Origin: Candidatus Aenigmatarchaeota archaeon
GTDB taxonomy: Archaea > Aenigmatarchaeota > Aenigmatarchaeia > Aenigmatarchaeales > Aenigmatarchaeaceae
NCBI GenBank assembly: GCA_043814985.1
Contig: JBDRJK010000009.1
Coordinates: 1-15,598, forward strand
DNA: 15,598 bases
Reading direction: 5' to 3'
Every line of letters begins with the position of its first letter. The first letter of the stretch is position 1. The position numbers were made by a program. Positions 1-6,000 of the stretch are shown in pieces.

Positions 1-3000
1 ATAGTGAAGTCTGAGTATGATGGTTCTTCCTTGTTAGTTTCATACCAATTTTCCCAGTCTTGTTCAGACCAGTCCTTGATAGACTCTTTTGTTAAATCTT
101 CTAGTTTCATGGTTATTTTGAGAATACCTCTCCTTATAAATGTTTCGTTACTAAGCAGTAGCAATAACGCTTTTTCTGAAATCCGTTATTCAGTCACTCG
201 ACAGTGTAAAACCTGAAAACCTCGAATTTGAGGGCTTTAGGCTCTGTACTGCCAGAACTGCCAAGAGGCCAGAAAGACCGACTTTGCATTGGAGGTTTGC
301 CTGCCAAGGGGCGGAATGAGACCGAAAAAAACAAGGAGGTAAGAACCATGAAAGACATGGAAACGGTCGAAAAGTACCGCCAAGGCGAAGCTGATAAGTG
401 GGCAAAGAAAGACCAGGACATACGCCTTCAGGTCTGTTTTAAGAAGGCAATAGATGTCGAGATACACCTCATAAAAGGTGCACAGGCACTATCTGAAGCC
501 GAGATAACGGCAAGAATTCTGCAACGAACTGAGAGCTATTTCCGAGGCTACAGCCAGCTAAGGAACAGGCTCGTGGAAGGCATTTCTGATGAGGATGACG
601 ATGACTCAGCAGAATGACATCCGCAAAGAACTGCAGAAGAAAAACCAGCAGACCCGACAAAAAATCCAGAAACAGAAAGACAACCAGGAAGTCGACGACT
701 TCATGGAAGACATAGGCATCGACAGAGTCGATAAGCCACAAAAAAAGGATGAAAGGAGGTCAAGAAAATGAAACTTGAAGCATCAGACAAGGTTGCCGTA
801 CCTCAAAAACGGCCATTTATCAAAAAAGGATTCTATCATGCACGACTGGTAGAAATCAAGCCAAAGAAGAACGAGAGCAAATTCGGCAAGAAGATTGTCC
901 TTATCTTTGACATTCTTGATCCGAAATACCAGCAGAACGGAAAGTTTCTGCAGCTCGCAACAGAAGTGTATTCTGAATACAAGCAGGACGATGGAAGCTA
1001 CAGGACAGCAATAACCCCGAACAGCAACATCACCAAAACGTTCCAGGCACTGGGATGGAAATTCTCCAATCAGGGCCTTGACACAAACGATTTCATCGGA
1101 GCAGAAGCAGAAGTTCTGGTTGAAGACTACGAATACGACTGGACAGACCCAGCAACGACCAAGACAGAGAAAACCAGAGCCAGCACCATCAATGACGTCA
1201 ACCCATGGAAAGATGAGGCGGAGGTAACCGAAGAAACCATCCAATAAACGTCACCACTGTTCAGTACGATTATGTCAAAATCGCAACATTACACTGACAG
1301 ACCCCCTATTTTCGGGTTTGAAAAAAGTAACTGATAGGGTTTTGACATAATCGTATCGGATAGTAGTAACAAAAAGACGACTGGAAAACAAGCGAGACTG
1401 CTCGAAGTAGCTGCAGCTATCAAAAAAACAAAGGAGGTACAGAAGAATGAACAAAGAAATATTCATGAGTTTCATGAAGTTTGGCACTCTTGGCCTGCCA
1501 AAAGAAATACTCACAGAACTCAATGGAAAATACTTCACTGCAGCAGACTCACTGATCCAGTCAACAAAACCAGAAGATATTCAGAAGAACATAGCAGTAC
1601 TCTCAGAATTAGAGAAGTATCTGAGAAAGATTTCTGAAGAGCATGATGTTGATTTTCCAGATGTTTTTTTCTTTTTGAGCGGATACTACAATTCAGACAT
1701 CGTTTGTGAGAACCTCAAGGAAGACGATAGAGTTCCTGATGCATTCATCAAATCTCTTGAGAGCAAACATACTGAAAACAGCATCATCAAAATATCTCAG
1801 CCATACAATTACGAGCAGATAAAATATATTACCCGTCAGATATTCAATAACCAGAAAGAAAGACACCCTCTTATTTTTCCAATACCTCCTCATGAAAAGA
1901 TTTTGGGAAAAGTAGTTGGAGAGATAGAGCAAAGAAAAATAAAAATTCCACTTGCTTGGTCAAATGAAATCCAGGTCAAAGACGTAAAGAATTATGCAGC
2001 ATATGTTTTTGGCGAGACACTTCCAAAAAGGCCAAAGATAGTCGATGAAGTAAACGGAGAATTCTTCCTCTACAGATTTCTCTCAAAAAGCGGAAAAGAA
2101 TACGCACTGGCAAGCATAGACAAGCTTAATCTCGATGACTACACACTTGACGGGATAAGCATTGAAGTTGAGGACGTAAAGATACTTGGCGATGCATACA
2201 GACTGCTCAATAAATTCACGCTCTTCTTTGTCCATACTGCAGAAAACCACGTCTGCCAATTAAAGAACCATCAGCAATTATTCCAGAAAGCTGATGCTGT
2301 AAAACTCACAGGAATAAAACTTTATGACTATCTTTGCAGCTATAAAAAAGATGGAATAATCCAGATTCTCGAGCATCCAAAATGGTTTCTCAGGCTCGTA
2401 TCAGCATTTCTGTTTCACAAAAAGAAGGGAGACACTGCAGAATACCCTATGCACCTTCTTTGGATTTCCGAGAGAGGGGCTGGCAAAACCAGCTTCATGG
2501 AAGGAGTCCAGCAAAAGAGCGGAGAGACGCAGGGCATCATAGCTGGAAGCAATTCCACTATCAAATATCTCATTCCAAGTTTTAAAGAAACACGAAGACC
2601 AGAGATGGGAGCTCTGGCCAAAGCATCACGTCTCTGCGTCATTGACGAATTCTTCAGAGTCATCAGGATAAATCACTTAGACCATGACGATGAATGCGGG
2701 AAGATGAACGATCTTCTCGAGCATAAGGACAGGCAGGCTGGAAGCGGACATGGCATGATAAGAACCAGCATGACTGCACGAGTAATTGCTGGCACGAACC
2801 CGATTGCAGGAACAAAAGACATCATTAATCTTCTTGAAAGGTTTGACGATTCTTTCCTGAGCAGATTCCTCATTTACTATCAGACTGACGAGCACTTAAA
2901 ACTCATTCAGCAGATGAAGAAAACAGCACAGAAAAGGTACACAAAAGATTGGATTGATGTCAACGACTTTCTCAGCATCCAGGATTATCTTCAGGGATTT

Positions 3001-6000
3001 GATGCAAAATATGACCGACAAAGACTCATCGACATCTTTGACAGATTCCTGCTGTTCTTCAATGAGCAGGTAAAAGGATTGTACGAGGCAAGATATCTGC
3101 ATCACCTCGAATGCCTCACTGACGGAATCGTAAAAACGAGATGCCTCATAACAAGAGATGCAGCATTCACGGCAACAGAAGAAGATTATCAGGAAGTAGA
3201 ACAGATATGGGGCACAATACTCAAAGGATGGTTCAAGCAAAGCATCGATGAACTCGTCTGTGATTTGAATGTACCAATAGAAACCCGTCTGAAATTTCTT
3301 CCTGAAGATGCAATGTTCATTCTGCACAAGCTTGCTTCAATCGGATACAAGGCAAGGATAACAGAACTCAAAGACAAATGCAGAATTGAAATGTCTGCTC
3401 CAAAAATAGCATTCCAGATGTCCCTTCTTCATAGAGGGGGATTCATCAAAGACAACAACGGAGAAGCAATCCATTACGCATGGGATGTAGAGGAGAGAAA
3501 ATGAGACTCTACTGCACCCAAGAGGAAGAAGACTATTGGATGGGTGAGCCTATCTATGAAGAAAACAAATCCGTCGGATTTCACAGAATGTGGTTTCTTG
3601 ATGTACTCTCAAGAAAGACTGATTTTGATATCAGCCTGCAAAGTCAGGAGGGATATTTCACGAAAAGAATGTCCTGGTCTGATTTGCATCCTGACAATAA
3701 GCTTCGGGCATACATCATTCATAGAACACTGCTATGCAATGAGATAGTGTTTGATCTTGATGCAAAAGATTACGAGCAGAATGTTGAGAATTTCAAGAGC
3801 ATATATCCACGACTCAAGGAACTCGGTTATTTTCCTTATGTGTATTATTCAGGAAATAAAGGCCTGCACATCCACCTATTCCTTTCATTCAAAAGCCTCG
3901 TCAACGATTTGGATATGAAGATACAGAAAAGAATTGTCAAGCATTATGCGAGAGCAGAAACCTTTGAAAAACAATTCACAAAATTCATAACCAACAAAAT
4001 ACAATGGGCTCACCGATACTTCTCCGTTGACAAAGCCATTAATCAGACCAATCATCTTATACGTGCAGAGGGAAGCCTCAACAAAATAGGATTCAAGACA
4101 TTCTTAGGACATACTCCAGAAGAAATTCCTTCAATAGCTCCAGTCTTCAATCTTGAAAACAAGGAATATCCAAAATTTCCATTTCATGAGATTACAGATT
4201 CACTTGAAACCATAAAGTACTCTCACCCAACAAACCTCGTGCCTCTGTGCGAAGAATTTGTGAAAGCAAAGAAGATAGGAATACAGGAGCCAACATACAA
4301 ACCATTAACGGAGTTCTTTGATATAAAGCCAAAAGACAAGTCATGCATAAAGTTTCTTGAGACGGCAGATTTTGCTAATTTACAAGAAGGAAGGAAAAGA
4401 GCACTCTTCATTCTCGCATCGCATTACAAGGATGATCCTCAGCAGATAGTTATCCTGCAGGAATGGAACAACAAAATCCTCGACAATCACCTGACTGATT
4501 TTGAAATACAGAGTTCTGCAAAGAGCACAACAGGAAAAGTGAGCTGCAAGTACACTCACGAGTTTCTCGAATCAATAGGGTGCAGTCAAGTCTGCAAGGG
4601 GTGTTCGCAATGATTCAGGTGCAGGGCATTACAGATCCGAAGAAGCAGATGAAAACCATTCAGTTCCTAAAAAGTGTCCCGGAGTTCTCTGATATTGACG
4701 GGAGGAAAAGGGGGCCGTTCAAACCAGGAGACGCTCTGAGGATACATATCGACATTGCTAATCTGCTCATACTCAAAGGCAAGGCCAAAGAGTTTGATAT
4801 CGACTGAGGTGAAACCATGAACGAGGCAATACAATTGAGAAACAAACTGATGGGAGAAATCCAGGCATTGAGGCAGGATAATTCATCATGGAAAAGAAAG
4901 ATAGTGGAGAATGAAAAAAGAATTGCAGAGCTTGAACAGATTACAAAATCATTCGAGCATCTGACAAAGGAGGCAGTACAATGATGCAAAAACTAAAGCG
5001 AAGATACGTCTATGCAGAAACATTTGACGAAATAATGGCTTGGGCAAAAGAGAAAGGAATCAGAGCTCCGAACAGGAAAGATAATTTTCCATTCTTCCTG
5101 CATGAATATCTGAAAGAAAAAGGAGGCTGTCAAGATGTGGAAAGGATATGATTCACTCCCCAGTTATTTTGGCGGAAAGAGAAAGCTTGCACGAAGAATC
5201 CTAAGCCACACAGAAGGAGAAGTATTCATTGATGCGTTTCTTGGAGGAGGAAGCGTCTCTCTATTAGCGAAAGCAAGAGGATACAAAGTAATCTGCAACG
5301 ACATTTCAGAAAGGTCAAAGATAGTAGGCAAAGCAATCATCGAGAACAAAAACTCCAAGCTGACAGATTATGATGTTTATGCATTGTTCAAGGAAACTGA
5401 CAACCATTTCATCAGAGACACTTATCCGAATCTCCTGCTGGAAAAAGATGTGCAGTTCATAGACAACGCTTTTGCCAATGCGAAGACAGACCTGCAGAAA
5501 CTTCTCTTAATCAAGTTCCTCGCTAAATACAAGCCATTTGGCATGCTGTCCAACAAAATACCTAAAGACCTGGAGACATGCAATATCAAAGTCATAAAAC
5601 CGCACATCAAGTACATGTACAAGCCAGTCAAGGCACTGCAGCAAATCAAGGAACACATCAACTATGGAATCTTTGACAACGGAAAAGAAAACGAACACCA
5701 TCAAAAGGATGTCTTTGAATTCTTAGAGAACGTGCAGGGCGACACTGTTTACTTTGACCCTCCTTATGCTGGAAGCCAGAGCTATGAAGAATTTTACAAC
5801 ATCCTGGACAGCATCCTTTTTCAGAAGAAGATTTCGGTTGAGAAAAGCAAGTTCAACACTGGAGATGCTGAGAAATTCATTCATCAGCTTCTTGAGAAAT
5901 CAATGCACATAAAGAAAGTCATCTTCAGTTTTGGAGGTCCTCAGATTGACGGGCAAAGACTTCTCAAGATAGTGCAGGAGCACAGGCCTGCTGAACTCTA

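What a model noticed while it worked through the whole genome (the two positions that open the first line are those of the whole stretch)
1447..4807. Viral replisome module: cryptic MCM, primase and a stand-alone GINS B-domain
The head-tail virus contig encodes three adjacent replication genes invisible to the tables: a full-length MCM helicase only 11-14% identical to known MCMs (g00227), an archaeo-eukaryotic primase (g00228) and a free 65-aa GINS51 B-domain (g00229), the module that in cells tethers GAN/Cdc45 and PolD. A lone B-domain suggests the virus recruits or sequesters the host CMG partner.
Evidence so far: g00227: no Pfam/NCBIfam/PHROG hit; 41 homologues with Walker A/B and arginine-finger-like columns; model pLDDT 84, Foldseek rows all MCM, E 2e-15. 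g00228: Prim-Pol 1e-5, PHROG primase. g00229: Gins51_C 1.4e-5, 11 stand-alone homologues of 65-79 aa, top four folds are the GAN-Gins51C complex and GINS, rmsd 1.1-1.3 for three of them. Same three-gene order in IMG/VR contig L333; 1 of 7 viral loci read had the B-domain gene. Search call 103: no paper.
(Added by a program. Inside this text positions count along the whole contig: contig position 1 is position 1 of the stretch shown here. "Call 12" and the like, gene names such as g00115 and contig names such as C1 are that model's own, and its searches are not shown. The text may have been shortened before it was handed on; [...] marks where a part breaks off. The agent that wrote the report below was given it as the finding of a first reader that could run no searches.)

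Follow-up and report, generated by a model that had tools for sequence, protein, structure and literature searches.

The report
Viral GINS hook beside a helicase
A virus of tiny archaea carries, next to its own DNA-unwinding and priming enzymes, a lone 65-residue piece of the host protein GINS, and unrelated archaeal viruses carry the same piece next to or fused to their helicases, which suggests that viruses reuse it to hook the host's copying machinery onto viral DNA.

Summary
The three genes are real: a divergent MCM-like helicase (1447-3504), a DPANN-type fused primase (3501-4613) and a lone Gins51 B-domain (4610-4807) under purifying selection. The window is the left end of an integrated provirus (att core at 135). 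It belongs to the described Woesearchaeales tailed proviruses (WATPV). Table S5 of PMC11705971 already labels the orthologues MCM, primase and GINS, without discussing them, so 'no paper' is wrong. All 8 close loci have the B-domain; 0 of 11 distant ones do. The module also includes an SSB-like gene (768-1247) and, further along the full proviruses, Cdc6, but no DNA polymerase. New here: 4 of 4 viral contigs outside this family found with the domain place it fused to, or within one gene of, a D5-type or Prim-Pol-type helicase. This favours an adaptor that recruits host PolD and/or GAN to a viral helicase without the GINS tetramer (about 55%) over a decoy (20%). The partner and the tether of the free form are inferred. 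The bin holding the contig is probably not the host.

The parts
1..134 (-). Non-element flank: 5' end of a divergent gene (ATG at 110, reading off the contig)
   Evidence: Similarity to all 7 relatives compared starts at 131-135. Open frame of 36 codons, 24 nt after the att core. No convincing match in G000's genus or family.
135..147 (+). attL core TATAAATGTTTCG, left end of the provirus
   Evidence: Identical at the left end of all 7 relatives compared. Repeated on the same strand 51.5 kb (G004) and 55 kb (G003) downstream, beside a tyrosine integrase. Matches the published ends of QMQO01000002_pro and QZIT01000006_pro. Loose ends at 130/135 in 3 of 4 runs.
348..617 (+). Conserved small gene (about 89 aa), function not assigned
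   Evidence: Present in 8 of 8 close loci; no family above cut-off.
589..771 (+). Conserved small gene (60 aa or less), function not assigned
   Evidence: 8 of 8 close loci.
768..1247 (+). 159-aa DUF669-like protein, probable ssDNA-binding protein; fourth gene of the replication module
   Evidence: ESM Atlas 0.95, DUF669 clusters in 22 of 30 hits. Homologue in 8 of 8 close loci, and after the primase in 6 of 11 distant loci. The SSB role is inferred.
1447..3504 (+). Divergent MCM-like (SF6) helicase, 685 aa, without zinc finger
   Evidence: Foldseek. hhalign to the bin's MCM, probability 91.7, E 7.7e-7, aligns Walker A (K347), Walker B (D400 E401), sensor-1 (N451) and arginine finger (R473); K347, D400, E401 and R473 are invariant and N451 is at least 90% conserved in 32 sequences. 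One Cys in the first 269 residues.
3501..4613 (+). Archaeo-eukaryotic primase, fused PriS-PriL type, 370 aa
   Evidence: D87, S117-G118, H123, H185/R188 and C-terminal C282, R300, W322-N323, C349, C368 are invariant in 10 viral primases and shared with the bin's fused primase.
4610..4807 (+). Stand-alone Gins51 B-domain, 65 aa
   Evidence: dN/dS about 0.07-0.12 in the 4 of 5 window pairs with finite dS. Same context in 8 of 8 genome/virus loci, 3 further IMG/VR contigs and 11 of 11 metagenome loci.
4817..5151 (+). Two conserved small genes (55-aa coiled coil, 56 aa); candidates for a tether, untested
   Evidence: 8 of 8 close loci; coiled-coil Pfam hits below cut-off.

Best explanation
This is the replication module of a temperate Woesearchaeales tailed virus (WATPV group). 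Shown: helicase, fused primase, SSB-like gene and B-domain are conserved together, the full proviruses add Cdc6, and the annotated one has no DNA polymerase. Inferred mechanism: Cdc6 loads the viral MCM ring, the primase primes, and the free B-domain replaces the GINS tetramer as a hook. [quoted passage not shown] A virus-specific surface or a neighbouring small protein holds the domain on the viral helicase-primase, coupling host polymerase to the viral fork. Host GINS probably cannot serve a helicase only 11-16% identical to MCM (inference). Other archaeal viruses solve the tether by fusing the domain to the helicase C-terminus.
For: Helicase link in unrelated viruses: free domain directly after a D5/SF3 helicase (L074); fused to the C-terminus of a D5-type helicase (L080) and of a primase-helicase-family protein (L081), Gins51_C 2e-9 and 1.5e-9; free, one gene after a Prim-Pol helicase (L174, Gins51_C 1.4e-13). 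That is 4 of 4 genuine viral hits outside this family. An 887-codon helicase gene with a CDD GINS_B hit is in another provirus of Table S5, PMC11705971. No PolB or PolD among the 64 genes of QZIT01000006_pro; Cdc6 is gene 41. DP1 found in 40 of 41 and GAN in 32 of 41 relatives of G004. Gins51C alone binds DP1N and GAN on opposite faces, and this link couples unwinding to synthesis (PMC9023282). The GAN-critical Asp163 (PMC5100581; mapped) is D41, invariant in 14 of 14 viral sequences. In hosts it is Asp in 25 of 25 with GAN and 2 of 6 without. Val148 maps to the invariant F26. Purifying selection.
Against: The fold is not specific to replication: Gins51_C domains also sit in ABC solute-binding proteins, which are the top three longer hits, and they too keep the Asp163 equivalent. 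The viral family departs from 99 cellular Gins51 at positions 156 (R, cells 88 Y), 165 (L, 75 A), 166 (R) and 168 (H, 91 P). The window protein also has S/G at 149/153 where cells have hydrophobic residues, so the presumed DP1N face looks eroded. 0 of 11 distant loci with this helicase have the gene within the flanks read, so it is dispensable for the helicase lineage. GAN was not found in 3 of 5 provirus-bearing genomes (incomplete MAGs). L074's domain has Glu at 164. A free domain has no covalent tether. The viral hits came from narrow patterns and are few.
Confidence: 0.55

Rival explanations
1. Decoy. The free B-domain competes with host Gins51C for GAN and/or DP1N, uncoupling the host replisome (freeing PolD for the virus) or damping GAN's 5'-3' exonuclease, without being attached to the viral helicase.
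For: The domain is free and tether-less. Gins51C alone binds GAN but does not stimulate its nuclease (PMC5100581), as a dominant-negative would. D41, F62 and I64 on the GAN face are kept.
Against: In L080 and L081 the domain is part of the helicase chain, which a decoy does not need. The ATGA overlap with the primase gene suggests stoichiometric co-expression with the fork enzymes. Many invariant residues differ from the host consensus.
Confidence: 0.2
2. Virus-internal subunit. The domain came from Gins51 (or is a detached PriS C-terminal domain) but now binds only viral proteins, for example as an accessory of the primase or helicase.
For: PriS-CTD and GINS B-domains share the fold (PMC2861644; 1zt2_A at Z 6.3). 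The gene follows the primase directly. Family-specific invariant residues. In bin G000 the fused primase gene is followed by gins51.
Against: No PriS among the 66 hits scanned with Pfam or the 12 long hits without an A-domain. The viral primase is the fused type that ends in a PriL-like Cys domain. The domain recurs beside three unrelated helicase types, which points to a common host partner. Distant relatives use the same helicase and primase without it.
Confidence: 0.15
3. Role outside replication, such as a gpFI-like packaging helper or a generic L9-N-type interaction module.
For: Lambda gpFI C-terminal domain at Z 6.1 and ribosomal L9-type chains at Z 5-5.7. Terminase genes lie 2 kb downstream. 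The domain occurs in solute-binding proteins.
Against: Sequence neighbours are overwhelmingly Gins51. The best folds are Gins51, more than 2.5 Z units above gpFI. Position next to or inside helicases in 5 independent viral settings.
Confidence: 0.07

Closest known systems
[quoted passage not shown]
   Same: Same gene order from the left end through the portal; helicase 57% and 64% identical. Table S5 gives MCM2 (7PLO_2, 100), eukaryotic-type primase, GINS (7E15_B, 99.7) and Cdc6 for QZIT01000006_pro, and GINS (7E15_B, 99.6) for QMQO01000002_pro. Same left boundary.
   Different: The main text never mentions GINS (0 occurrences), nor that the gene is a lone B-domain. The window is a further member, partial (15.6 kb), in a bin of another order, with a DGR cassette between portal and protease.
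Thermococcus kodakarensis DP1N-Gins51C-GAN hub (5GHR, 7E15; PMC5100581, PMC9023282)
   Same: Fold (rmsd 1.1-1.3 over 52 residues); Asp163 and hydrophobic 148, 184, 186 kept.
   Different: No A-domain and no tetramer; Arg at 166, His at 168, Asp at 170, basic hairpin; virus-encoded.
MCM/SF6 helicases of archaeal viruses and proviruses (PMC4889955, PMC3914693 passages)
   Same: A viral MCM-type helicase with primase, relying on host replisome parts.
   Different: Below Pfam detection, no zinc finger, 11-16% identity; accompanied by a GINS fragment, which PMC4889955 does not mention (0 occurrences).
Fused PriS-PriL primases of DPANN archaea (PMC3914693)
   Same: Single chain with PriS catalytic motifs and a C-terminal Cys domain that aligns with the bin's fused primase.
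   Different: Distant in sequence (E 4e-6 in a small search); motif I is DxD here and ExD in distant viral relatives.

Membership tests
MCM helicase | AAA+ core with MCM-type Walker A/B, sensor-1 and arginine finger | tested here: met
   Aligned to the bin's MCM; conserved columns.
MCM helicase | Whole-chain structural match to MCM | tested here: met
   All rows shown are MCM/CMG entries, 516-802 aligned columns, E about 1e-15, but TM 0.35-0.46 and rmsd 8-18.
MCM helicase | Zinc finger in the N-terminal B subdomain (recalled feature) | tested here: not met
   Cys only at 87 in the first 269 residues; no conserved N-terminal Cys. Filed as MCM-like SF6, not canonical MCM.
MCM helicase | Sensor-2 arginine | tested here: inconclusive
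   The host Arg aligns with invariant H552; invariant R549 lies three residues before.
MCM helicase | Pfam PF00493 above cut-off | tested here: not met
   No hit at E 0.1; distant relative L011 gives E 0.014.
MCM helicase | Hexameric ATP-driven unwinding | not testable with these tools
   Needs an assay.
Gins51 B-domain | B-domain fold | tested here: met
Gins51 B-domain | Sequence closest to Gins51C | tested here: met
   100 of 149 hits have an A-domain; orthologues pass the Pfam cut-off in G001-G003; the window protein is 1.8 bits under it.
GINS complex subunit | Helical A-domain forming the tetramer | tested here: not met
   65-aa ORF overlapping the primase stop; the same in all close loci.
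Gins51 B-domain | Interface residues for GAN and DP1N | tested here: inconclusive
   163, 148, 184 and 186 fit; 164 is Ala here (Val/Ile in most relatives); 166 is Arg; 149/153/156 have diverged.
PriS C-terminal domain | Nearest relatives are PriS tails | tested here: not met
   No PriS identified among the hits examined; 1zt2_A scores Z 6.3 against 8.9 for Gins51.
Fused PriS-PriL primase | AEP catalytic motifs plus C-terminal Cys domain in one chain | tested here: met
   definition from PMC3914693 passages.
WATPV group | Shared gene order, orthology and left boundary | tested here: met
WATPV group | Woesearchaeales host | tested here: inconclusive
   The contig lies in a bin of another lineage and is not linked to its other contigs.

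The most novel reading that the evidence does not exclude
Archaeal tailed viruses have repeatedly captured the Gins51 B-domain and use it, free or fused to MCM-like, D5/SF3 or Prim-Pol-type helicases, as a universal plug for host PolD/GAN. This would be a minimal, GINS-tetramer-free CMG mimic and a direct answer to how polymerase-less archaeal viruses recruit the host replicase.
Probability: 0.5. Interest if true: 0.8.

Novelty: new variant of a known kind. Interest (0 to 1): 0.62.

Why it matters
[quoted passage not shown] A 50-65-residue GINS fragment beside or inside unrelated viral helicases names a candidate and makes it testable with three small purified proteins. It would also show that the Gins51C/Psf1C hub can work without the GINS tetramer. 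In 2012 GINS was described as not found in any viral genome (PMC3307487, authors' response).

Tried and rejected
Complex prediction of G004's GAN with the B-domain of G004's provirus: no answer, score 0.00, controls not folded; it is no evidence either way. DP1N and viral partners were not modelled (one job). No RNA holder was listed. Sequence searches of PDB with the domain or its profile found nothing useful. tblastn of the domain (window or L080) against phages and plasmids, and of the helicase against phages, gave no match. P0092 has no IMG/VR locus. Pattern scans: one search gave 9 loci (2 of this family, 3 genuine others, 4 judged chance by reading); one search gave 2 repeats; one search gave 11 loci (2 repeats, 1 new, 8 chance by HMM). 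No relative of the L081 fusion was found besides itself, so its conservation is untested. A general B-domain alignment was too loose to scan with. P0174 (two B-like domains on a 669-aa chain) could not be assigned as a helicase and is not counted. Linking the flank to G000's lineage failed. The sigma-70 promoter and terminator scan was at chance level. Val170-to-Asp as a sign of lost DP1N binding was rejected: 75 of 99 cellular sequences have Glu/Asp there. Table S5's label 'DNA polymerase' for gene 3 was rejected: it is the 161-codon DUF669-like gene. Four GAN-positive rows did not parse and were dropped from the 25/25 count, and 6 of 12 GAN-less genomes had no Gins51 locus fetched. Earlier scan findings: none relevant. 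Literature searches without a paper that discusses viral GINS domains. Supplements of bioRxiv preprints and of most listed papers were not seen and may hold further GINS annotations.
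Full report
Observation. The window encodes, on the plus strand and linked by ATGA overlaps, proteins of 685 aa (1447-3504), 370 aa (3501-4613) and 65 aa (4610-4807). The first has no Pfam MCM, PHROG or NCBIfam hit. Its model (pLDDT 85.6) retrieves only MCM/CMG entries at 11-16% identity, though with TM 0.35-0.46. A profile of 32 homologues aligns to the bin's own MCM across Walker A/B, sensor-1 and the arginine finger (probability 91.7). It lacks a zinc finger, and sensor-2 is ambiguous. The second is an archaeo-eukaryotic primase whose catalytic motifs and C-terminal cysteines align with the bin's fused primase, the DPANN type described in PMC3914693 (passages). 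The third folds as a Gins51 B-domain. Of 149 profile hits beyond the first, 100 are Gins51 with an A-domain, 37 are short pieces and 12 are longer others. dN/dS is about 0.07-0.12 in window pairs.

What it is. The helicase profile found 8 loci in GTDB genomes and 11 in IMG/VR. The 8 with 56% identity or more share the window's gene order around the module, B-domain included; the 11 at 35% or less have no B-domain in the flanks read. Three more IMG/VR contigs and 11 of 11 metagenome loci show the same context (several are near-duplicates). Similarity to relatives begins sharply at position 135 with a 13-base core. That core recurs 51.5 and 55 kb downstream beside a tyrosine integrase in G004 and G003. 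Contigs of 3 of 4 runs have other flanks at 130/135. The window is therefore the left end of an integrated provirus. The three proviruses read far enough carry Cdc6 after the tail genes. The 159-aa gene at 768-1247 is DUF669-like and travels with helicase and primase in 6 of 11 distant loci, so it belongs to the module; an SSB role is inferred.

Prior description. [quoted passage not shown] Table S5 labels genes 4-6 of QZIT01000006_pro MCM2, eukaryotic-type primase and GINS, and gene 41 Cdc6, and lists no PolB or PolD among 64 genes. The main text has no occurrence of GINS.

Host. The bin G000 has an MCM only 43.5-44.9% identical to those of three provirus-bearing genomes, which share 59.5-71.6%. 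None of the 41 other genomes of its order has the viral helicase. DP2 was not found in 4 of 4 genomes of its genus (81-91% complete), and its DP1 is truncated. Its Gins51 scores lowest against the viral profile, 17 bits against 22-46 for the other hosts. The rest of the provirus is not in the bin, and the contig's tetranucleotide fit (0.57) is below all 43 host chunks, though proviruses often deviate. A Woesearchaeales-type host and mis-binning is more likely than not; it is not shown.

The new evidence. Outside this family I found four viral contigs with a genuine B-domain, and all four tie it to a replicative helicase. L074 has a free 51-aa domain overlapping the stop of a D5/SF3 helicase. 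L080 and L081 have it fused to the C-terminus of a D5-type helicase and of a primase-helicase-family protein. L174 has a free 63-aa domain one gene after a Prim-Pol helicase. Table S5 adds an 887-codon helicase gene with a CDD GINS_B hit (sequence not examined). The scans were narrow and 12 of their hits were chance, so these are examples, not a census. Against specificity, the same domain occurs in ABC solute-binding proteins.

Interfaces. In T. kodakarensis Gins51C binds GAN through Ile140, Asp163, Met164, Ile166, Val184 and Ile186 (PMC5100581, passages). It binds DP1N on the opposite face, where V148D/V170D abolishes binding (PMC9023282, passages and part 4 of 7). Mapped through, Asp163 is D41, invariant in 14 of 14 viral sequences. 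In hosts it is Asp in 25 of 25 with GAN and 2 of 6 without (Fisher p 0.0005, kin not independent, MAGs incomplete). It is also kept in solute-binding proteins, so it may be structural. Val148 is F26, invariant. The family differs from 99 cellular sequences at 156, 165, 166 and 168, and the window's hairpin is basic, whereas L080 and L081 keep the cellular hairpin. Assigning that hairpin to the DP1N face is my inference. For the free WATPV form the GAN face looks better kept and a virus-specific surface has appeared; for the fused forms both faces look intact.

Mechanism. Most likely (0.55) the domain is an adaptor that brings host PolD and/or GAN to a viral helicase-primase, standing in for the GINS tetramer. 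The genes, their linkage, the fusions and the lack of a viral polymerase are shown; partner and tether are inferred. Rivals: a decoy against host GINS contacts (0.2); a purely virus-internal subunit or detached PriS-CTD (0.15; PMC2861644, part 1 of 3); a role outside replication (0.07).

Verdict. What is new is the lone-domain anatomy and its repeated tie to unrelated viral helicases. Other papers checked by passages for GINS without a relevant hit: PMC4889955, PMC12647753, bioRxiv 2025.02.15.638363, PMC9377139. New variant of a known kind; interest 0.62.

Noticed in passing
window 135-147; L004, L006, L009 left ends: Read on the other strand, the att core looks like an archaeal BRE plus TATA promoter (consensus recalled). 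In the window, L004, L006 and L009 a gene starts 23-32 nt after it, in L010 9 nt after; L005, L008 and L012 show no clear one. The 13-mer occurs 6-9 times in G001, G003 and G004. The virus may integrate at promoters rather than tRNA genes.
   Followed up: partly
window 11158-14485: Diversity-generating retroelement between portal and protease genes: template 11158-11244, variable repeat 11584-11670 in the 302-aa minus-strand ORF, 13 of 13 mismatches at template adenines, reverse transcriptase 12767-14485. A similar cassette sits at the same place in G003 (L006/L036); other relatives lack it.
   Followed up: partly
G000:C14:24111-25016; genus G000, G016-G018: The bin has a 301-aa DP1 that looks cut short of the nuclease domain, next to cdc6 and a PolB gene; DP2 was not found in 4 of 4 genomes of the genus. 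Possibly a DPANN lineage without PolD.
   Followed up: partly
L028, P0044-P0046, P0167: Membrane-anchored ABC peptide-binding proteins end in one or two Gins51_C-like domains.
   Followed up: no
P0174, P0184, P0092: Other non-GINS carriers without context: a 669-aa protein with two C-terminal B-like domains, a 279-aa protein with about three, and an 82-aa free domain.
   Followed up: partly
G002, G003, G005 and 9 of 41 relatives of G004: GAN was not found, and where Gins51 was read it often lacks Asp163: possible GAN loss within Woesearchaeales.
   Followed up: partly
L008:6070 and 8636; L042:18753 and 19568: Second copies of the att-like end 2.6 kb and 0.8 kb away enclose a few genes, like small cassettes using the same site.
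   Followed up: no
L005, L007, L008 record titles: Labels Methanosarcinales and Cloacimonadota look doubtful: G002's MCM is 59-72% identical to the other hosts', and L007 gives the same coordinates and scores as L006.
   Followed up: partly
L042, L043, L044: Full proviruses carry two tyrosine recombinases and variable defence cargo (Dnd, DISARM, restriction-modification), as published.
   Followed up: no
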